From a virus: DNA of 64,000 nt. The stretch spans positions 15,800 to 79,799 of IMG/VR virus record IMGVR_UViG_3300019758_000009; one strand, written 5' to 3'. The notes below the pieces were generated by a model. The model was given only the letters and a program-made list of their open reading frames with translations, ran no database searches and had not been told where the DNA came from. Shown here in pieces: positions 10,424 to 63,738 of the stretch; positions within the stretch are counted from its first letter, which is position 1, and each line of letters begins with the position of its first letter. The position numbers were made by a program, and so were the translations under genes.

Positions 10424-11749
10424 TTGCCGATGGATATAAAGAAATTCCAATTTATCGAAGGCAGTATCGCGACAGGTGAAGTAGCGACTATTAGATTTTT
10501 TGATTCTGTTGACGCATGGTCAGTAAGTTCGTTTGTTGACGAATTTCATTGGCTTGAGAATTATGTAAAACCTTCAAAAATTAAGATCCTAATCAATTCA
10601 GAGGGTGGGTCAGTTTTAAGAGGTATGGGGGCGTTCTCCGCTATCATAAACTCAGAGGTACCAACAGAAACAATTGTCGAGGGTCTTGCAGCATCTATGG
10701 GATCTGTCCTATTGGCAGCTGGTGGCGTAGCTAAAATGCGCGACTACGGTATTATTATGCTTCATAATCCATTTGGGGGTAATGACCCAAATGATCCAAT
10801 GGTCCTGGCTTTTAAAGACCAGTTGAAGGTAATCTATAAAAAACGATGGGGGTTCAGCGATGAACGTATCACTGAAATTATGGATGGCCCAGAGGATGCG
10901 GATGGGACATATATGAATGCTGAAGCTGCTGTCGAATATGGTATAATGCATCAGGACAATGTAATACAAACTCCACTACAGGATAAAGAGTCGATACTAG
11001 CTAAACTAGACACTTCAAACTCAACTGTTAATTACGGAGAGGTATTTTCATGCTCATGCCCTGTTAACTCAAACATTAAACCATCTCTTGATAATTTATC
11101 TAATATTAAGAGTGAAGGGAATACAGTTCCCAATGATAACAATAATAACCAACAAAATTCCAACACTATGGAAAACAATTTTGAAGCGGTAGTAGCTACT
11201 CTTGAATTAGCTAAGAATTCTACTCCAGCTGATGTTATGGCTAAAATTGTTGCTTTGAATAAAGTTGAAGCAAAAGTAGCAGCCTTAACTCAGGATAATG
11301 CAACCCTAACTCAGGATAATGCAGACCTTGTAATTGCTAAAACAGGATTACAAACAAGCCTAGAAACAGTAACTGGTCAGTTAACCGACAAAGAGACTGA
11401 GCTTACTTCGGTAAAAGCAGAATTGCAGGCTTTTCAAGATGAAAAGATCGCCAAAGTAAAAGCTGAGCAAGAGGCCGTTATTGACGACGCGATCAAAGCA
11501 GGTAAAATCAAAGCTGAATCCAAAGATCAGTGGGTATCTATGGCCAACATGAATTTCGACACTGTAAAATCTACCTTAGATTCTATGCCAGGTAAAACTG
11601 TTATTTCTCAAGAGATTGTAGCAGACGCTGGATCAACATTCGTAAGCGAGGGTGGGGTACAGCTAACAGACGAAGAGGTAAAAGCTAAAGAGCATGCCGA
11701 TAAAATCAAAGCAGTGGTTGGCGATATCACATACACAAAATTAGCTTAA
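10424..11749 (+). CDS. ClpP-type prohead protease fused to a C-terminal scaffold (start probably 10430)
   Basis: INSEGGSV, GLAASMGS (catalytic Ser), IMLHNP and YMNAEAAVEYG, then a coiled-coil tail with AIKAGKI. Confidence 0.88.
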   Translation: MPMDIKKFQFIEGSIATGEVATIRFFDSVDAWSVSSFVDEFHWLENYVKPSKIKILINSEGGSVLRGMGAFSAIINSEVPTETIVEGLAASMGSVLLAAGGVAKMRDYGIIMLHNPFGGNDPNDPMVLAFKDQLKVIYKKRWGFSDERITEIMDGPEDADGTYMNAEAAVEYGIMHQDNVIQTPLQDKESILAKLDTSNSTVNYGEVFSCSCPVNSNIKPSLDNLSNIKSEGNTVPNDNNNNQQNSNTMENNFEAVVATLELAKNSTPADVMAKIVALNKVEAKVAALTQDNATLTQDNADLVIAKTGLQTSLETVTGQLTDKETELTSVKAELQAFQDEKIAKVKAEQEAVIDDAIKAGKIKAESKDQWVSMANMNFDTVKSTLDSMPGKTVISQEIVADAGSTFVSEGGVQLTDEEVKAKEHADKIKAVVGDITYTKLA

Positions 11750-51360: not shown

Positions 51361-53562
51361 ATGAAAATAAAAACAGTAAAGAGAATTATAGCAAAAAAGC
51401 CTGTTGTTGTGACTGATATGTTAATAGACGAGGGGTTCCGGCCTGGAGGTCGAGTATCCCTTCCTGATATCGATATTGATTACGCATCAGATGGCAGATT
51501 AAAAGTCAAATCATACATAGAAGAAAGATACAACAGTGATGGCACTCAAAATGTCTTTTCTGCTGGAAACTTAACAACCTTGAAGATGAAAGCGGCCCTA
51601 AAAGATGTATGTAAGGTACATCGGGTACCGTATGCTTTAGCTAACTACACTACTGCAATGATCAAGGATGACGGTATGACATGGACAGGCTTATTTAAAG
51701 AGTGTATGGTTAACAAAAAAATGAAAAAGTTTGTTAATGACTACCCTAAGGCTATCGAGGATATTAGGTCCATCATGAACCAGCCAAGATCCACGTCTAT
51801 CCACGCTTCAGCTGTTATCGTAACACCTAAATTTAAAGATGGAAAACGAGTAGAATGTTTTGATTATCTGCCTTTAAGAATTATGGATGGATTGCTTGTT
51901 AGCGAGTTTGATGGTTATTCAGTGGAAGAGATTGGACTTCTAAAGAACGATGTATTGGCCACTAAAGAGCTAATGAAGATCAGAAATACTATTAATCTCG
52001 TAAATGAAAACTATCCATACAAAATCAAGGAAATGATGAGCCATGTAGAAGGAGAGGACATCCTAACTATGGAAGCTATACATACCAAGATGACAAACGA
52101 TAAAGGGGCGTTTTCGTTATTTAGTAACGGCTACACCCAGAACATCTTTCAGTTTTCAGGTAGAGGTATGACGAAATTTGTATCCGATATGGGGCTTGAT
52201 TCTATTGATGACATAACAGCAGCAAATGCCTTGTATAGGCCAGCAACTATTGATATAAAGGCCCACGAGGACTACATCAGGTATAAAAGAGGCGAAGCTA
52301 CACCTACCTATAACTGGGGGACGTATGATAGCACTTCAGAGACTCACGGTATTATGGCCTACCAAGAGCAGATGATGAGGATATCTCAAACAGTAGGGGG
52401 CTTTTCATTATCTAAAGCTGATGTATTAAGAAAGGCTATCGGTAAGAAGAATACCGAAATCATGGCATCACTAAAGCGGGATTTTATAGATGGAGCTGTA
52501 GCCAACCAGTGCCCTGTGGCAGAAGCTAAAGATATATGGCGCAAAATTGAATTGGCTGGAAGGTACTCTTTTAACAAGTCTCACGCAGCAGCGTACGGCC
52601 TAATCGCCTATGACGGGGCATGGCTGAAATCGAATTTCCCAACAGCATTTTATACTGTCGCCCTGCAATTTTGCAAGGATGAAGATATAAAGGTGCTTAT
52701 GGGAGAAATGAGTGAAATATCAAACTGTCAAATTGTGCCTCCAGACGTGAACGTTTCCGGTCTTGAGTTTTTCACAAACTATGACACGGATGAGATATTC
52801 TGGTCATTGTCTAGAATTAAGTTTGTCGGAGCTAAAGCCGTCAACTCCATAATTGAAGACAGAGTTGAGTTCGGTGCATTTACTAGCATTGAAGACTTTT
52901 ATATTCGAATGCAAGCTAGATCAGTAAGCGATAAGGCCGCCTCAATAAAAAACGGCGATAGGTACACAAATCCAGTGAACTCTAGGACTATAAAGAATAT
53001 GATACTAACTGGATGCTTTGATAATATCGAAAACACCAAAGAAGTTAGTGATAGGTTTTTTATTTTAGAGAAATTCTACACCTTAATAGGGGGAGAGATT
53101 GACACTGAAGACTTTCCAGGTGAAATGATAGACAAGCATTATTTCTGGTCTATGCTACAGGTTGAGCTCTCTGGATTAGGGTCTGTGGATTACCGAAGGA
53201 TATTCAACAACTCTAAATCGAGATTGGAAATGAAAAAGACCCCATATCTAAGCCTTAAGGATGCCCTAGATATGGAAAACGAAGGCAGGAGATGCGCTGT
53301 TTGTGCTACAGTTGTAGATATTTCTGAGAAGTCAGGAAAAACAAAGAAAGGAGACCCCTATTTATTTGGCAAGGTACAACTGCAGCAAAATAATGAAACT
53401 ATCGAATGCACTATTTGGAATGATACATGGATACAGAAAAAGCCATTACTAGCAGATGCTAAAGGTAAAGTGGTGGTAATAAATGGTAATTTGAAATATA
53501 ATTCATTCTCTAACGGCAACGCAATGACATGCGGGTCAAGTGTTGTTATTGAGATAATCTAA
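51361..53562 (+). CDS. dnaE: DNA polymerase III alpha, C-terminal subunit beginning with an intein-C-like segment
   Basis: SLPDIDID, SIHASAV, GLLKND.L, FQF, ALYRP, YQEQ.M, YSFNKSHA and a C-terminal OB fold. Confidence 0.93.
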   Translation: MKIKTVKRIIAKKPVVVTDMLIDEGFRPGGRVSLPDIDIDYASDGRLKVKSYIEERYNSDGTQNVFSAGNLTTLKMKAALKDVCKVHRVPYALANYTTAMIKDDGMTWTGLFKECMVNKKMKKFVNDYPKAIEDIRSIMNQPRSTSIHASAVIVTPKFKDGKRVECFDYLPLRIMDGLLVSEFDGYSVEEIGLLKNDVLATKELMKIRNTINLVNENYPYKIKEMMSHVEGEDILTMEAIHTKMTNDKGAFSLFSNGYTQNIFQFSGRGMTKFVSDMGLDSIDDITAANALYRPATIDIKAHEDYIRYKRGEATPTYNWGTYDSTSETHGIMAYQEQMMRISQTVGGFSLSKADVLRKAIGKKNTEIMASLKRDFIDGAVANQCPVAEAKDIWRKIELAGRYSFNKSHAAAYGLIAYDGAWLKSNFPTAFYTVALQFCKDEDIKVLMGEMSEISNCQIVPPDVNVSGLEFFTNYDTDEIFWSLSRIKFVGAKAVNSIIEDRVEFGAFTSIEDFYIRMQARSVSDKAASIKNGDRYTNPVNSRTIKNMILTGCFDNIENTKEVSDRFFILEKFYTLIGGEIDTEDFPGEMIDKHYFWSMLQVELSGLGSVDYRRIFNNSKSRLEMKKTPYLSLKDALDMENEGRRCAVCATVVDISEKSGKTKKGDPYLFGKVQLQQNNETIECTIWNDTWIQKKPLLADAKGKVVVINGNLKYNSFSNGNAMTCGSSVVIEII

Positions 53563-55328
53563 TGCGTATGGCAAAAAAAAGAAAGAATGCCACTACAGTA
53601 AGAAAACATCTATTTGAAGATGATATTGTAGTGTTGATGAGTATAAGGGGGATGGAGAGCAACACCTTTCCCCCTTTAAGCGGCACCGATCCAAAAGTAT
53701 ACAGACCAAGAACCACTCAGGCCGAATGGAAGAAAATCCTACAGGCCAGAAAGAAGGCGGTTAAAACGGAAGCAGAAGCCAAGGTTCCCGATGAAGCAGT
53801 AGAATTAATGCGGCGAGTTTTAAAAAACCAGTCATTAACTACCCAAAAGAAAGAACAGGTCTTAATTAAACATTTAGATGTGGACAGCGATACCCTGCAT
53901 AAATGGGCTGAAAAGCTAAAGCTACCAATGGCCAGTTCTGAGTTCGCCATCGCTAAATCACATCAGCTTAAAAAATCCAAGAGGTACATCATCTCTTCAG
54001 CTCAAAACGCATCGTCATGCAATGTGCCGTTTTTAAGAAACATAGAGGCGTATGCTAAGTTTATAAGTGCAGAGATCGGTATCATTGCTACCAGATACAA
54101 AAACCCAACATCCGTATGGCATAAACATGGGGAGTTTTGGGACAAAGAGGTTCATCCGTACTTAACGGCCAAAAGGCACACCCTACATAAACACCTGGAG
54201 TTACTAGCTGACCTTAAGGTTCAGGCTACAGCCCCTAACCCGACTAATGGGATAGAGTTGTTTGGCGATGAAAGATCATGCATTGTAGGGTCTCCAAGAA
54301 TAGAGATGAGATCACTGCCGGTGTTAGCTTCTGAACACCAGAAGTTTCTCTACTCTACAGGCACTGTCACTAGCCCGTCATTCACAGATACCGTTGCTGG
54401 AGGTAAAGCTAAAGAGCATCATACGTACGGTTTTATTGTAGTTGAGATTGAAAGCGATGAAATAATTCATATGAGATCGGTGTCGGCGCATTCAGATGGA
54501 TCCTTTCAGGATTTAACATTCAAAGTAGCTGATCAAAAAATATCTAGGTACAACGTAGATACCATGGTTCTTGGAGATATTCATTTCGCTCAAAAGGATG
54601 AGCGAGTTACTAATGCTAACCGCAAAATGATGCGAGATATGAGTATTAATACAGCTGTACTACACGACACCTGGGATAGTGAATCCATAAACGTTCACAA
54701 TGCTAATAACCCCGTTGTTCAGCACGAACTAGCTTTATCTGGCAAAGATGACCTACAGAAAGAAATCGACCAGCTATTCGATGAACTAAGCTGGTTTGGC
54801 CAGAATATAAAGAGAACCCTAGTTGTATCATCTAATCATGATGACATGCTGGATAGAGCTATGATTACCTATGACTGGAAAAGTAATATGAAAAACGCGA
54901 AGGTATTCGTGGAGCTTTTAGGCATAAAGCTATCAGGAGATGCAGAAGAGGGGTTGATACCATTCTTAATCAATGAATACTTTGATAATGTATACGCTTT
55001 AGGTAGAGAGGAATCGTACATGCTGCACGGCGTACAGGTTGGCCTACATGGGCACAGAGGGCCGAATGGAGCTAGAGGCAACATCAACGCCTTTTCCAGG
55101 TTACCAGTCAAGACGATAACCGGTCACTCGCATTCTCCAGCCATAAAATGGGGAGCCTATCAGGTTGGTATAGCATGCTCAATGAAGCATGGATACAATA
55201 TCGGACTATCAAGCTGGGCTTACGCAAATTGTTTGTTGAATGACCAAGGTAAGCGTCAAATGATCGTCTTAAACAAGGACACATTGACCTACACGACTCT
55301 TTTTAATCAATACCCTGAAAAGTTTTGA
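53562..55328 (+). CDS. Metallophosphoesterase-fold protein, T5 A1-like nuclease candidate
   Basis: GDIH, HD, SNHD, HGH and GHSH motifs, plus YIISSAQN. Confidence 0.6.
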   Translation: MRMAKKRKNATTVRKHLFEDDIVVLMSIRGMESNTFPPLSGTDPKVYRPRTTQAEWKKILQARKKAVKTEAEAKVPDEAVELMRRVLKNQSLTTQKKEQVLIKHLDVDSDTLHKWAEKLKLPMASSEFAIAKSHQLKKSKRYIISSAQNASSCNVPFLRNIEAYAKFISAEIGIIATRYKNPTSVWHKHGEFWDKEVHPYLTAKRHTLHKHLELLADLKVQATAPNPTNGIELFGDERSCIVGSPRIEMRSLPVLASEHQKFLYSTGTVTSPSFTDTVAGGKAKEHHTYGFIVVEIESDEIIHMRSVSAHSDGSFQDLTFKVADQKISRYNVDTMVLGDIHFAQKDERVTNANRKMMRDMSINTAVLHDTWDSESINVHNANNPVVQHELALSGKDDLQKEIDQLFDELSWFGQNIKRTLVVSSNHDDMLDRAMITYDWKSNMKNAKVFVELLGIKLSGDAEEGLIPFLINEYFDNVYALGREESYMLHGVQVGLHGHRGPNGARGNINAFSRLPVKTITGHSHSPAIKWGAYQVGIACSMKHGYNIGLSSWAYANCLLNDQGKRQMIVLNKDTLTYTTLFNQYPEKF

Positions 55329-61459: not shown

Positions 61460-61518
61460 AATAAAGTTTGGAATTACGAAATAAAGCATTACATTTGTAT
61501 CACAATAAAACGTAGCGT

Positions 61519-61857
61519 ATGATAACAGAAGCAACCGAAGGAACATCAGTAGTAATTACAGGGTCAAGTGATTTAGCAGAGGCAGGGTTAAACACCTTAA
61601 TTGGAAGAAAAGGTATTGTCATCGAGGCCCGAGTAGGCAAAGATGTTCGCCGTAACAATCGAGGCTACTGGGTTAAGATCTCTGGGGAAGGGTTTCAAGG
61701 TACCGATACATGGTTTATCCCGCGGGTGTCAGTAACTATTGAAAAGCCCAAAAAAGCAAAAGATGCAAATATTACCCGAGGCGATGCTGCTGAGCCGAAT
61801 ATTAAAATTACCTATGAAGAAGGTTCAGGGGTAGCGAATGTCGAGTCAGTGCGATAA
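61519..61857 (+). CDS. Hypothetical protein (SH3-like N-terminus)
   Basis: TAGCGT-ATG start, preceded by a TACATTTG promoter. Confidence 0.6.
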   Translation: MITEATEGTSVVITGSSDLAEAGLNTLIGRKGIVIEARVGKDVRRNNRGYWVKISGEGFQGTDTWFIPRVSVTIEKPKKAKDANITRGDAAEPNIKITYEEGSGVANVESVR

Positions 61858-62168
61858 TAAAAAGAAGTAAGCATAACCTTTTAATGTAAGGTTTTACTAT
61901 TATTAATTACATCGGGCGTAAAATGATGTTACTCTATTTCATGTTATATTCTTTAAAGAATTTTACGCCTATTGCACGTTCTCGCCCATGGCGTGTGATT
62001 ACTTGGAGGCTGAGATTGTAGATAGTTGGCATTACTTTGCCCGTTCCTGCAATCAAAACGCCTCAATGGGATGCCAAAAGAGTAGCTATACAGATAGCGA
62101 ACAACGAGGCGTCATTAGACATCCACGCCTACAACCCAGTTATGGGAGAGACTTTTGGGGGTGTTTTT

Positions 62169-62259
62169 GGAGGGGTGGCAGAGCCCGGTTTATTGCGGCG
62201 GTCTTGAAAACCGTTGGCCATGTAAAAGTGGTCCCTGGGTTCGAATCCCAGCCCCTCTT
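62169..62259 (+). tRNA. tRNA-Ser (TGA)
   Basis: GGAGGGG/CCCCTCT acceptor, GCGGT-CTTGAAA-ACCGT anticodon arm, long variable arm and GGTTCGAATCC. Confidence 0.92.
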
Positions 62260-62459
62260 CACCAAAACGGTACAGGTTCAATAAAATCTGAAATTCAGAT
62301 ACCTAAACGGGAGGCTGGTACCGTCTGTAATTAGTTAACAATGAATGTGGCCGCGTCTTGCGCAAGAGACTTGATTTCCGGCAGGGGTGATGGTATTAAA
62401 ATCAGTAGCATCCGTGTGCGACTCATGGAGGTTTTATCGCGCCACATTTTTAAAATATA

Positions 62460-62531
62460 TGTGGGGAGCGTGTTGGTTCGCTCGGGGGCTCATAACCCAC
62501 CAGTACGGAGGTTCGATTCCTCCTCCCGCTA
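62460..62531 (+). tRNA. tRNA-Met (CAT), initiator-like
   Basis: 1:72 mismatch (T/T), GGG-CTCATAA-CCC anticodon and T-arm GGAGG-TTCGATT-CCTCC. Confidence 0.85.
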
Positions 62532-62544
62532 CTATTGTTATTCT

Positions 62545-62803
62545 GTGATACCTTTATGGTACTTACTCAGGACCGGGGTTCGACTCCCCGCAGCTCCACT
62601 CGATGCCGATTAAAAGGTTACCCAAGATTGATTAATGATCGCTTGGGAAAATACTCGGGGCTGGCACTGGATTTTGACTGGTATGAGACTGGAAAGGAGG
62701 AGGGTAATGATTACCGCTATAACAGGCAAAACTATTACACACAACTTCACTCAGCTTAGAGCTGTAGCGTAGTTACGTACTGATCCCACGTAATAGGGAT
62801 CAA
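62545..62803 (+). ncRNA. ssrA: Circularly permuted (two-piece) tmRNA
   Basis: The 3' acceptor piece (T-arm 62574-62590, CAGCTCC-A 62591-62598) precedes the 5' piece GGGGCTG (62657). It has a G3-U70 pair and tag ORF 62725-62772 GKTITHNFTQLRAVA*. Confidence 0.85.
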
Positions 62804-62805
62804 AA

Positions 62806-62879
62806 CTGGAAGCGATCCAATGGCGCGGTTACCTCACTTGGACTGAGGGTTATTGTAGGTTCGATCCCTACCTTCCGGA
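62806..62879 (+). tRNA. tRNA-Pro (TGG)
   Basis: CTGGAAG/CTTCCGG acceptor, CCTCA-CTTGGAC-TGAGG anticodon arm and GTAGG-TTCGATC-CCTAC T-arm. Confidence 0.88.
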
Positions 62880-63160
62880 CTTTAATTTATCTGCCAGCAT
62901 AACCCATCAGAGAAAGTTTACCAGATGAAGCCGGTGTGTACAGCTGGTGGATGGTAAAGACATGTTGCGCGAAGACTCGCGCAGGGTCATTGGGTATAAA
63001 ACCTATTTCCCCGTTGAAATAAAGCGCGCTCGGGGTGGTAAGTTCCTTATGTTAATATTAAGGTAGCGAGCACAATGTCTCGGTAAATTGCGCAATGGTG
63101 AGTTATAGGATCTCATCGTAGTTATAGTTATCGTTAGGGTTGTGCTTATGGTAACTATCT

Positions 63161-63497: not shown

Positions 63498-63580
63498 GCG
63501 GGTATGGCGAAATCGGTAGACGCGCTGGGCTTAAACTCCAGTGCCTTTTTGGTGTGTGGGTTCGACTCCCTCTACCCGCA
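63498..63580 (+). tRNA. tRNA-Leu (TAA)
   Basis: GCGGGTA/TACCCGC acceptor, CTGGG-CTTAAAC-TCCAG anticodon arm, variable arm and GGTTCGACTCC. Confidence 0.92.
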
Positions 63581-63738
63581 CGAGGCCGCTATGTATGATT
63601 GCGGTAACGACTCCAGATATCCGTACTACTCTGGAAAGCAAAGGCTACATCTCTTAAATGAGGTGTGGCCTTTGTTGGTTTTCTAACCAAATAGTTACCT
63701 CATGTTCTATTTTCAGGTGTAACTAAAATAATAACTAT

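What the first reader, a model, noticed from the sequence alone, without database searches (positions are those of the whole stretch)
62545..62803. Circularly permuted, miniaturised two-piece tmRNA in a Bacteroidota-type phage
Seen: the tmRNA 3' end (GAC-CGGGG-TTCGACT-CCCCG-CAGCTCC-A, to 62598) lies upstream of the 5' end (GGGGCTG..CTGGATTTTGAC, from 62657). About 58 nt of intervening sequence with its own hairpin (CCCAAG/CTTGGG) separates them. The acceptor stem has the alanine G3-U70 pair. ATAACA precedes a GGC resume codon and tag GKTITHNFTQLRAVA*, followed by one hairpin (62781-62802). The two pieces total only about 200 nt, and the gene is wedged between tRNA-fMet and tRNA-Pro, whose processing could create its outer ends. 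Known: permuted tmRNAs are described in alphaproteobacteria, some betaproteobacteria and cyanobacteria, and some mitochondria, while Bacteroidota tmRNA is normally one-piece with a GENNYALAA-like tag. Inference: this is an independent permutation giving a phage ribosome-rescue RNA with a different degron, using host SmpB (no smpB in the window).
Basis: partly seen in the sequence, partly recalled or inferred. Interest (0 to 1): 0.88.

Follow-up and report, generated by a model that had tools for sequence, protein, structure and literature searches.

The report
Two-piece mini tmRNA in Bacteroidota phage
This phage carries a real, back-to-front and unusually small gene for tmRNA, the RNA that frees stalled ribosomes; it is a divergent member of a family already labelled in public records of other Bacteroidota phages, though I found no paper that analyses that family.

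Summary
Rfam's permuted-tmRNA model passes its threshold (56.4 bits against 47).

The gene is 62533-62805:
- acceptor piece, 62533-62598
- 58-nt spacer
- coding piece, 62657-62805

It sits in a tRNA array between an initiator-like tRNA-Met and tRNA-Pro, so tRNA-processing enzymes could make all four RNA ends. The mature RNA would be about 218 nt, against 350-400 nt in Bacteroidota bacteria. A small hairpin replaces pseudoknot 1, and one candidate pseudoknot follows the stop codon.

The phage is Bacteroidota-type by two proteins and by promoter motifs. No smpB was found in the record.

The novelty claim fails in part. Two-piece phage tmRNAs are published. Permuted tmRNAs of crAss-like phages are listed in a published supplementary table and annotated in GenBank, and Chryseobacterium phage MA9V-3 has one too. 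The window's tag resembles that of cr10_1 (GNNFVTDYTQLAVA), with only synonymous changes across the shared end.

The family looks derived from Bacteroidota one-piece tmRNA, so an independent permutation is plausible for the family but not for this gene alone.

This scan has reported the same family before, on other DNA.

The parts
61875..61901 (+). Candidate phage promoter motif AACCT-N17-CTATT, about 270 nt upstream of the RNA gene array
   Evidence: The motif AACCW-N17-CTATT occurs 8 times in the window against 0.59 expected. No shuffle of 100 reached 8, and seven of the eight are on the + strand. A second copy at 63685 follows the array's terminator. Promoter function is inferred.
62460..62532 (+). 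tRNA-Met (CAT), initiator-like. Its 3' processing would create the 5' end of the acceptor piece
   Evidence: ARAGORN. It has a 1:72 mismatch and three G-C pairs at the base of the anticodon stem. The D arm is weak, and Rfam does not list it at its threshold.
62533..62598 (+). Acceptor piece (the 3' part of a normal tmRNA): helix 2 strand at about 62543-62570, T arm 62574-62590, acceptor 3' strand 62591-62597, discriminator A62598. No CCA is encoded
   Evidence: Rfam RF04321 alignment, two-strand fold and the sequence itself. An HMM built from related phage acceptor pieces hits here (20 bits, E 1.5e-05).
62599..62656 (+). Intervening segment, removed on maturation, with a hairpin at 62621-26 / 62642-47
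   Evidence: It lies between the discriminator and G1 of the acceptor stem. Folded alone it gives -12.4 kcal/mol. In relatives the spacer varies from 18 to 214 nt. Excision is inferred from known two-piece tmRNAs.
62657..62805 (+). Coding piece: acceptor 5' strand 62657-63, D-loop analogue TGGATTTTGAC, helix 2 strand 62678-62697, and the tag reading frame with its 3' structure
   Evidence: ARAGORN and Rfam. An HMM of related phage coding pieces, built without the window, has its best hit in the 64 kb at 62667-62773 (E 5e-04).
62703..62715 (+). Small hairpin (GGTAA-TGA-TTACC) where pseudoknot 1 normally sits
   Evidence: Predicted in the two-strand fold. The 3-nt loop is too short to form a pseudoknot. 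In E. coli a stable hairpin can replace pseudoknot 1 (review PMC3968760).
62725..62772 (+). Tag reading frame: resume codon GGC, tag GKTITHNFTQLRAVA, stop TAG
   Evidence: ARAGORN. The context ATAACA|GGC matches relatives and Bacteroidota one-piece tmRNAs. Against cr10_1, the shared tag end T-Q-L-A-V-A differs by 4 synonymous changes and no replacement, apart from the window's one extra codon for R.
62774..62802 (+). Candidate H-type pseudoknot: stem 1 is 62774-78 with 62788-92, and stem 2 is 62781-87 with 62796-62802
   Evidence: In my own search under rough steric rules it scored 30, and no shuffle of 200 reached that (mean 17.5). Relatives L043, L005 and the crAss group show the same stem order and an ACG core. 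L042 against L052 shows one compensatory change in stem 2. Not proven.
62806..62880 (+). tRNA-Pro (TGG). RNase P cutting at its 5' end would create the 3' end of the coding piece
   Evidence: ARAGORN. Including the window, 25 of the 35 related genes have a tRNA or a T-arm module directly after the coding piece, and 5 have a run of six or more T instead.
63637..63676 (+). Strong terminator-like hairpin closing the RNA gene array
   Evidence: A 17-pair stem followed by GGTTTTCT. It lies after the last tRNA (Leu, 63498-63581).

Best explanation
This is a working phage gene for a two-piece tmRNA.

It is probably transcribed with six tRNAs as one unit, from a phage promoter near 61875 to the terminator at 63637-63676.

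Host tRNA-processing enzymes would then make four cuts:
1. 3' processing of tRNA-Met frees the 5' end of the acceptor piece.
2. A cut after A62598 followed by CCA addition makes its 3' end.
3. RNase P cuts before G62657.
4. RNase P cuts before tRNA-Pro at 62806.

The 58-nt spacer is lost.

The two pieces (about 69 and 149 nt) stay paired through the acceptor stem and an irregular helix 2.

Host alanyl-tRNA synthetase charges the RNA, using G3-U70 and A73. Host SmpB and EF-Tu bring it to stalled ribosomes. Translation resumes at GGC 62725, adds Ala plus GKTITHNFTQLRAVA, and stops at TAG.

The likely benefit is to keep ribosomes free late in infection, when broken messages pile up. The tag end (AVA rather than LAA) may change the fate of tagged proteins.

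The gene belongs to a family found in Bacteroidota phages that probably arose from the host phylum's one-piece tmRNA.

Shown here: the gene's anatomy, its family membership and the selection on the tag. Inferred: transcription, processing, charging, SmpB use and the benefit to the phage.
For: - Two detectors agree on the gene.
- The acceptor stem has 7 pairs with G3-U70 and A73, and the T arm and D analogue are intact.
- In 35 related phage genes the acceptor and T stems covary and stay paired. Helix 2a has the same form in the window and in many relatives: 3 pairs, a bulged U, then 3-6 pairs.
- The family HMM, built without the window, finds the coding piece as its best hit (E 5e-04), whereas the alpha-type coding HMM finds nothing there.
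- The tag end is conserved with cr10_1 through synonymous changes only, as expected for a translated tag.
- A tRNA or T-arm module follows the coding piece in 25 of 35 family members.
- None of the window's six tRNAs encodes CCA, and neither does the tmRNA.
- The complete genome of MA9V-3 has a family member but no SmpB, so reliance on host SmpB is normal for the family.
- Bacteroidota link: the resume codon is GGC in the same A/U-rich context as Bacteroidota one-piece genes. The window's T-arm type occurs in 85 of 401 sampled Bacteroidota genomes. One of these shares the acceptor stem and has the tag GNTSFAVAA.
- A second assembly supports the gene order.
Against: - There is no RNA evidence of any kind, so expression, cleavage and tagging are untested.
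- No close relative of this particular gene was found. The outer part of helix 2 and the pseudoknot therefore rest on one sequence. Two pairings compete for 62543-62550: with 62718-25, or with 62733-39.
- The nearest relatives of the phage lack the gene.
- The tag end AVA is not the canonical LAA, so its effect on proteolysis is unknown.
- The record is about 72% complete, so a phage smpB cannot be excluded.
- The acceptor-piece HMMs do not separate lineages (alpha-type 28.8 bits, family 20.0 bits).
Confidence: 0.8

Rival explanations
1. The gene is real, but it comes from the alphaproteobacterial two-piece lineage, like those of marine phages such as Melnitz. It was later adapted to a Bacteroidota host, so it does not come from a separate Bacteroidota-derived permutation.
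For: - The acceptor piece scores higher with an HMM of six alpha-type phage genes (28.8 bits) than with the family HMM (20.0 bits).
- Both types carry a CTGT(A/G/T)A motif near the 5' end of the acceptor piece.
- The RF04321 model that detects the gene was built from alpha, beta and cyano sequences.
Against: - The alpha-type coding-piece HMM has no hit on the window's coding piece.
- Alpha-type genes keep pseudoknot 1 and resume at GCA with ANDN-type tags. The window has neither feature.
- The resume codon GGC, its context and the tag match Bacteroidota-phage genes and Bacteroidota bacteria.
- No alpha, beta or cyano model reached its threshold.
- The CTGTNA motif resembles the ATGTAG motif of ordinary one-piece tmRNAs, seen by eye, so it may be ancestral.
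Confidence: 0.15
2. The RNA is made but does not tag proteins. It acts as a tRNA-like decoy that soaks up host SmpB or blocks host trans-translation, as proposed for the tRNA-like-domain-only RNA of mycobacteriophage DS6A.
For: - A DS6A-type molecule is reported to inhibit tmRNA strongly, perhaps by titrating SmpB (PMC4131195; PMC11915505).
- The window lacks pseudoknot 1, and its tag end is non-canonical.
Against: - The reading frame, the resume context and the stop codon are all kept.
- The tag end is conserved with cr10_1 through synonymous changes only. Across the family the DYT(R/Q)L core is kept with synonymous changes.
- A hairpin can replace pseudoknot 1 without loss of tagging in E. 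coli.
Confidence: 0.06
3. It is an artefact: a mis-assembled one-piece gene, an integration-site remnant of a host tmRNA 3' end next to a chance 5' look-alike, or a decaying pseudogene.
For: - Phages often integrate into host tmRNA genes and carry their 3' ends.
- The nearest relatives of the phage lack the gene.
Against: - A separate assembly spans the whole gene without any difference or joint.
- The two halves are exactly complementary in the acceptor stem and helix 2a.
- The same order of parts recurs in 35 distinct phage genes.
- The gene passes Rfam's threshold.
Confidence: 0.02

Closest known systems
Permuted tmRNA genes annotated in crAss-like phages of Suoliviridae: cr10_1 (MT774382.1, 26352-26737), cr50_1, cr125_1, cr60_1. 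These are listed as 'Permuted' in Table S1 of PMC9004378
   Same: - Permuted order of the parts, no encoded CCA, and no pseudoknot 1.
- Resume codon GGC after an A/U-rich leader.
- Similar tag: GNNFVTDYTQLAVA against GKTITHNFTQLRAVA.
- A candidate pseudoknot with the same stem order follows the stop codon in cr125_1 and other crAss-type contigs. The search did not support one in cr10_1 or cr50_1.
- A tRNA or tRNA-like module lies directly downstream.
   Different: - The window's spacer is shorter (58 nt against 99-214 nt) and has no T-arm module.
- The window has an extra hairpin before the resume codon and a different T stem.
- The window's downstream module is a full tRNA-Pro, and it also has a tRNA directly upstream.
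- The phage is not crAss-like.
- Sequence similarity is too low for BLAST.
tmRNA of Chryseobacterium phage MA9V-3 (PV245944.1, 22766-23124; PMC13120357)
   Same: - A cultured Bacteroidota phage with a DnaE-like polymerase related to the window's (33% identity).
- ARAGORN calls its tmRNA permuted and RF04321 scores 64.7 bits. The spacer is 60 nt and the tag starts with G.
- No SmpB in the complete genome.
   Different: - It ends in a terminator-like hairpin rather than a tRNA.
- Its tag is GNVIDINKYVAKLEVAA.
- Its T arm and helix 2a are of the commonest Bacteroidota type.
- The paper lists it only as 'tmRNA' and does not mention the permutation.
Alpha-type two-piece tmRNA: Caulobacter, SAR11, and marine phages such as Melnitz (PMC9004378)
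   Same: - Permuted gene, cut by tRNA-processing enzymes into two paired RNAs.
- Fewer pseudoknots than one-piece forms.
- Also carried by phages.
   Different: Alpha-type genes keep pseudoknot 1, resume at GCA, and have ANDN...LAA-type tags. Their coding-piece HMM does not detect the window's gene.
One-piece tmRNA of Bacteroidota bacteria (tags such as GENNYALAA and GNTSFAVAA)
   Same: - G3-U70 acceptor stem.
- The same T-arm types: 85 of 401 sampled genomes share the window's.
- Resume codon GGC in an AATAAC-like context, and tags that start with G.
   Different: - The 104 calls made here, about four-fifths of them from Bacteroidota, were all one-piece genes. The 22 measured were 351-403 nt.
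- They carry pseudoknot 1 and further pseudoknots.
- Their CCA appears to be encoded.
- Their tags are shorter (9 residues) and mostly end in LAA or MAA.

Membership tests
tmRNA (SsrA), any form | tRNA-like domain: 7-pair acceptor stem with G3-U70 and discriminator A73, plus a T arm with a TTCGANT-type loop | tested here: met
   Pairs 62657-63 with 62591-97, including G62659-T62595. The discriminator is A62598. The T arm is 62574-78 with 62586-90. The pairing holds with covariation in 34-35 of 35 relatives.
tmRNA (SsrA), any form | Internal reading frame with a resume codon, a short tag ending in small hydrophobic residues, and an in-frame stop | tested here: met
   62725-62772, GGC to TAG, tag GKTITHNFTQLRAVA. 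Only synonymous changes separate its end from that of cr10_1.
tmRNA (SsrA), any form | Pseudoknot 1 between helix 2 and the resume codon | tested here: not met
   Only a 5-pair hairpin with a 3-nt loop lies there (62703-15). This feature is dispensable in E. coli when a hairpin replaces it, so failing it does not exclude function.
tmRNA (SsrA), any form | Partner protein SmpB | tested here: not met
   There is no PF01668 match in the 79.8-kb record, which is about 72% complete. The host protein is presumed to serve. The complete MA9V-3 genome also lacks SmpB.
tmRNA (SsrA), any form | Alanylation, ribosome rescue and tagging | not testable with these tools
   This needs bench work.
Permuted (two-piece) tmRNA, Rfam RF04321 | The 3' tRNA-like half lies upstream of the 5' half, a spacer lies between them, and the score is above the curated threshold | tested here: met
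   56.4 bits against 47, over the full model 1-213. ARAGORN marks the call with its permuted flag.
Permuted (two-piece) tmRNA, Rfam RF04321 | The transcript is actually cut into two RNAs | not testable with these tools
   No run listed as holding this DNA is on record as RNA.
Alpha, beta or cyano two-piece lineages (RF01849, RF01850, RF01851) | A match to the lineage's own model, and for the alpha type pseudoknot 1 and an Ala resume codon | tested here: not met
   None of these models reached its threshold on the window. In the permissive search the best overlapping member of their clan was RF00023 at 29.5 bits. The alpha-type coding HMM has no hit.
Bacteroidota-phage mini two-piece tmRNA (crAss-like Suoliviridae, MA9V-3 and IMG/VR contigs). 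This is my working grouping, not a curated family | A GGN resume codon after an (A/T)TAA(A/C)N leader, no pseudoknot 1, a tag starting with G, no encoded CCA, and a tRNA-like module or terminator at the 3' end | tested here: met
   All of these are present. The family HMM built without the window hits the coding piece at E 5e-04. The tag aligns with that of cr10_1.

The most novel reading that the evidence does not exclude
The window's gene and its relatives form a fourth, independent lineage of permuted tmRNA.
- The lineage was born from the one-piece tmRNA of Bacteroidota and passed among unrelated Bacteroidota phages (crAss-like, MA9V-3-like, and this one) as a small RNA cassette.
- Its ends are set by flanking tRNA or tRNA-like modules.
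- It has no pseudoknot 1.
- At roughly 200-220 nt, by my estimate, it would be smaller than the 230-400 nt range quoted for tmRNA.
- It carries a phage-specific tag, with core (D/N)(Y/F)T(R/Q)L and variable last residues, which gives rescued proteins a fate different from the host's LAA tag.
Probability: 0.5. Interest if true: 0.6.

Novelty: new variant of a known kind. Interest (0 to 1): 0.45.

Why it matters
If these RNAs work, they are a natural experiment in how little of tmRNA is needed. They keep the tRNA-like domain, one helix, a hairpin, the tag and perhaps one pseudoknot.

They also suggest that phages of a major gut and environmental phylum bring their own ribosome-rescue RNA while relying on the host's SmpB. 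And they show how a stable RNA can borrow the tRNA-processing machinery for all of its ends.

The altered tag raises a testable question: does the phage want rescued proteins destroyed, spared or sent elsewhere?

For annotation, about half of the family members tested fall under Rfam's threshold, and ARAGORN missed the L003 group. The family is therefore likely under-counted.

Tried and rejected
- A search for relatives through the neighbouring 339-aa protein found none. The polymerase search gave three loci, none with the gene.
- Two metagenome scans found no close relative of this particular gene, so its own helix 2 and pseudoknot could not be tested by covariation.
- No run listed as holding this DNA is on record as RNA. 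Only contigs could be laid.
- BLAST of the gene against phage records finds only the generic T-arm region.
- The MAFFT alignment A2 puts the acceptor 5' strand out of register in several rows. I therefore did not use it for pair counts, and counted pairs by fixed positions in a script instead.
- The acceptor-piece HMMs proved uninformative about lineage.
- My first pseudoknot search missed the window's candidate because it did not trim stems. I corrected this.
- The ORFs 62341-62613 and 62535-62759 overlap the RNA genes and have no Pfam match, so I treated them as spurious.
- The alternative frame starting at GCA 62727 gives a tag ending in LEL and is not supported by relatives.
- I considered TAG recoding and rejected it. 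Long ORFs read normally under code 11, and no suppressor tRNA is present.
- I ran no control for the T-arm pattern in other phyla. The 85 of 401 figure shows compatibility only, not origin.

Full report
**What is there.** The window is the last 64 kb of a 79.8-kb IMG/VR virus record, estimated 72% complete. ARAGORN finds six tRNAs between 62169 and 63581. Among them it calls a permuted tmRNA with the tag GKTITHNFTQLRAVA. Rfam's permuted-tmRNA model RF04321 matches 62539-62772 at 56.4 bits (threshold 47), over the full model.

Read directly, the parts are these:
- The T arm is 62574-78 paired with 62586-90.
- The acceptor stem pairs 62591-97 with 62657-63 and includes G3-U70. The discriminator is A62598.
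- The next bases are CTC, so CCA is not encoded.
- A 58-nt spacer with a hairpin separates the two halves.
- The resume codon GGC is at 62725, after ATAACA, and the stop TAG is at 62770.

ARAGORN's limits (62509-62863) are too wide, because they run into both neighbouring tRNAs. The gene proper is 62533-62805.

**Not an artefact.** A contig from a separate assembly of the probable source sample, a microbial mat, spans 61654-62908 without any difference or joint. A run from another study holds two near-identical 151-nt contigs from just upstream of the gene. No run listed as holding this DNA is on record as RNA, so expression is untested.

**The host.** The DnaE-like polymerase (51361-53562) has its best phage hits in a human-faecal phage contig (51% identity), Bacteroides phage BS-TP1 (46%), Chryseobacterium phage MA9V-3, and Cellulophaga phages. 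The A1-like protein (53562-55328) hits Flavobacterium phages best. The motif TTTG-N17-23-TANNTTTG, which I recall as the Bacteroidota promoter consensus, occurs 11 times against 3.0 expected, and no shuffle of 100 reached 11. A Bacteroidota host is therefore well supported.

**Relatives of the gene.** The nearest relatives of the phage lack the gene and, in the stretches checked, any tRNA:
- The 103-kb contig L008 and the records MT835494 and BS-TP1 have no permuted tmRNA.
- L008 and MT835494 have no tRNA near the polymerase.

The array therefore looks like an accessory insertion. Other Bacteroidota phages do carry similar genes. Pattern scans of IMG/VR, followed by a script, gave 35 distinct genes of one type, counting the window's own, and 6 of the alpha type.

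In deposited genomes the following features are annotated as tmRNA:

| Phage | ARAGORN call | Tag |
|---|---|---|
| MA9V-3 | permuted | GNVIDINKYVAKLEVAA |
| cr10_1 | permuted | GNNFVTDYTQLAVA |
| cr50_1 | permuted | GNNFVTDYTAIGA |
| cr125_1 | permuted | GNFYVTDYTRIAA |
| cr60_1 | permuted | GNTSYVMDYTRLAA |

**Evidence that the window's gene belongs with them.**
1. An HMM of their coding pieces, built without the window, has its best hit in the 64 kb at 62667-62773 (E 5e-04). An HMM of alpha-type coding pieces has no hit there.
2. The tag aligns with that of cr10_1. Over the shared end T-Q-L-(R)-A-V-A the codons differ by four synonymous changes and no replacement (CAG/CAA, CTT/CTA, GCT/GCA, GTA/GTT). 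This also argues that the tag is translated.
3. The leader and resume codon fit the family pattern (A/T)TAA(A/C)N|GGN.
4. Including the window, 25 of the 35 genes have a tRNA or T-arm module directly after the coding piece.

**Structure.**
- Across the 35 genes, seven acceptor-stem variants and four T-stem variants occur, and nearly all stay paired.
- Helix 2a in the window is 3 pairs, a bulged U, then 3 pairs (62568-70 with 62678-80, and 62564-66 with 62681-83). This matches the Rfam model and many relatives.
- The two-strand fold adds CCTTT 62551-55 paired with AAAGG 62693-97.
- Further out the picture is uncertain. 62543-50 can pair either with 62718-25, just before the resume codon and overlapping its first base, or with 62733-39 inside the tag. 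With no close relative I cannot decide between them.
- Where pseudoknot 1 normally lies there is only a 5-pair hairpin (62703-15). A review states that tagging in E. coli survives replacement of pseudoknot 1 by a stable hairpin, and gives 230-400 nt as the size range of tmRNA. The window's roughly 218 nt is below that range.
No shuffle of 200 reached its score.
- The same stem order, with an ACG core, recurs in L043, L005 and the crAss group. L042 against L052 shows one compensatory change. I treat the pseudoknot as a candidate only. Earlier notes of this scan call the family pseudoknot-free.

**Transcription and processing (inferred).**
- The motif AACCW-N17-CTATT, proposed in another first-reader note as a phage promoter, is strongly enriched: 8 matches against 0.59 expected. 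One copy at 61875 precedes the array, and another at 63685 follows a 17-pair terminator at 63637-76. The array therefore looks like one transcription unit.
- tRNA-Met ends at 62532, about 10 nt before helix 2 begins. tRNA-Pro begins at 62806, three bases after the candidate pseudoknot.
- Known two-piece tmRNAs are cut by tRNA-processing enzymes.
- None of the six tRNAs encodes CCA, so a need for CCA addition is consistent across the array.

**Origin.**
- The commonest T arm and acceptor 3' strand of the family occur mostly in Bacteroidota. By their record titles, 66 of the 80 bacterial genomes listed are Bacteroidota.
- ARAGORN's tmRNA calls at these sites are all one-piece, and those measured were about 350-400 nt. 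Most, and nearly all from Bacteroidota, have tags that start with G, such as GENNYALAA.
- The window's own T-arm type occurs in 85 of 401 sampled Bacteroidota genomes. One of these shares the acceptor stem and has the tag GNTSFAVAA. That tag recalls both the crAss prefix GNTSY and the window's ending AVA.
- I ran no control in other phyla, and these parts are under host selection. This shows compatibility with a Bacteroidota origin rather than proof.
- The acceptor-piece HMMs do not separate lineages.
- I put an independent, Bacteroidota-derived permutation of the family at roughly 0.5-0.65.

**Compared with what is known.** Two-piece tmRNAs in phages are published. The Melnitz paper found 53 unique two-piece tmRNAs in phage genomes. 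Its Table S1 lists crAss phages cr10_1, cr50_1, cr114_1, cr115_1 and others as 'Permuted'. The 2025 tmRNA database counts a few permuted genes in Bacteroidota assemblies without comment. The MA9V-3 paper lists its tmRNA without noting the permutation. In the papers I could search, I found none that describes this family's build or origin.

This scan has reported the family several times on other DNA. Those notes gave me the leads to the crAss records and to Table S1, and I checked both here.

**Verdict.** This is a real gene and a divergent new member of a phage tmRNA family that is labelled in databases but not analysed in print.

Noticed in passing
window 62460-62532 and 62806-62880: tRNA-Met has initiator features (a 1:72 mismatch and three G-C pairs in the anticodon stem) but a very weak D arm. 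tRNA-Pro has a 3-pair D stem. ARAGORN calls both, yet Rfam lists neither at its threshold.
   Followed up: partly
window 62261-62459, 62881-63160 and 61902-62168: The spacers in and before the tRNA array are unusually long (199, 280 and about 267 nt). The permissive Rfam search covered 62300-63000 and found no family there. The 280-nt spacer is the subject of another first-reader note.
   Followed up: no
window, 8 sites including 6938, 10262, 15190, 15889, 58080, 61875 and 63685: The motif AACCW-N17-CTATT occurs 8 times against 0.59 expected, and 7 copies are on the + strand. It brackets the RNA array, which fits a phage-specific promoter.
   Followed up: partly
window, 11 sites including 61467-61497: The Bacteroidota-type promoter motif TTTG-N17-23-TANNTTTG occurs 11 times against 3.0 expected. 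One copy lies just upstream of ORF 61519-61857.
   Followed up: partly
window about 10487-10969 (G000:C1:26286-26768): A ClpP-family domain (69 bits) lies in a 446-aa frame among the head genes. It is most likely the prohead protease, not a protease for tagged proteins.
   Followed up: no
L020:859-1025, L021:126-304, L023:1286-1454, L024:39-196 and L024:1131-1232: RAGATH-9, RAGATH-20 and RAGATH-22 RNAs lie close to the tmRNA genes of crAss-like phages. In cr125_1 a RAGATH-9 ends about 20 nt before the acceptor piece.
   Followed up: no
Spacers of 12 of the 35 family genes, for example L021:1534-1632: The excised spacer of many family members contains its own T-arm-like module. The window's spacer does not.
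   Followed up: no
L003, L004, L006, L007: This group has a terminator in place of the 3' tRNA module and the tag GNVIEMYPQ(I/L)RATA. ARAGORN missed it or miscalled it, and it scores under or just over Rfam's threshold.
   Followed up: partly
Chryseobacterium phage MA9V-3 (PV245944.1), ORF 62: The MA9V-3 paper annotates a ClpX-like ATPase about 4 kb from its tmRNA gene. The window's record has no AAA_2 match.
   Followed up: partly
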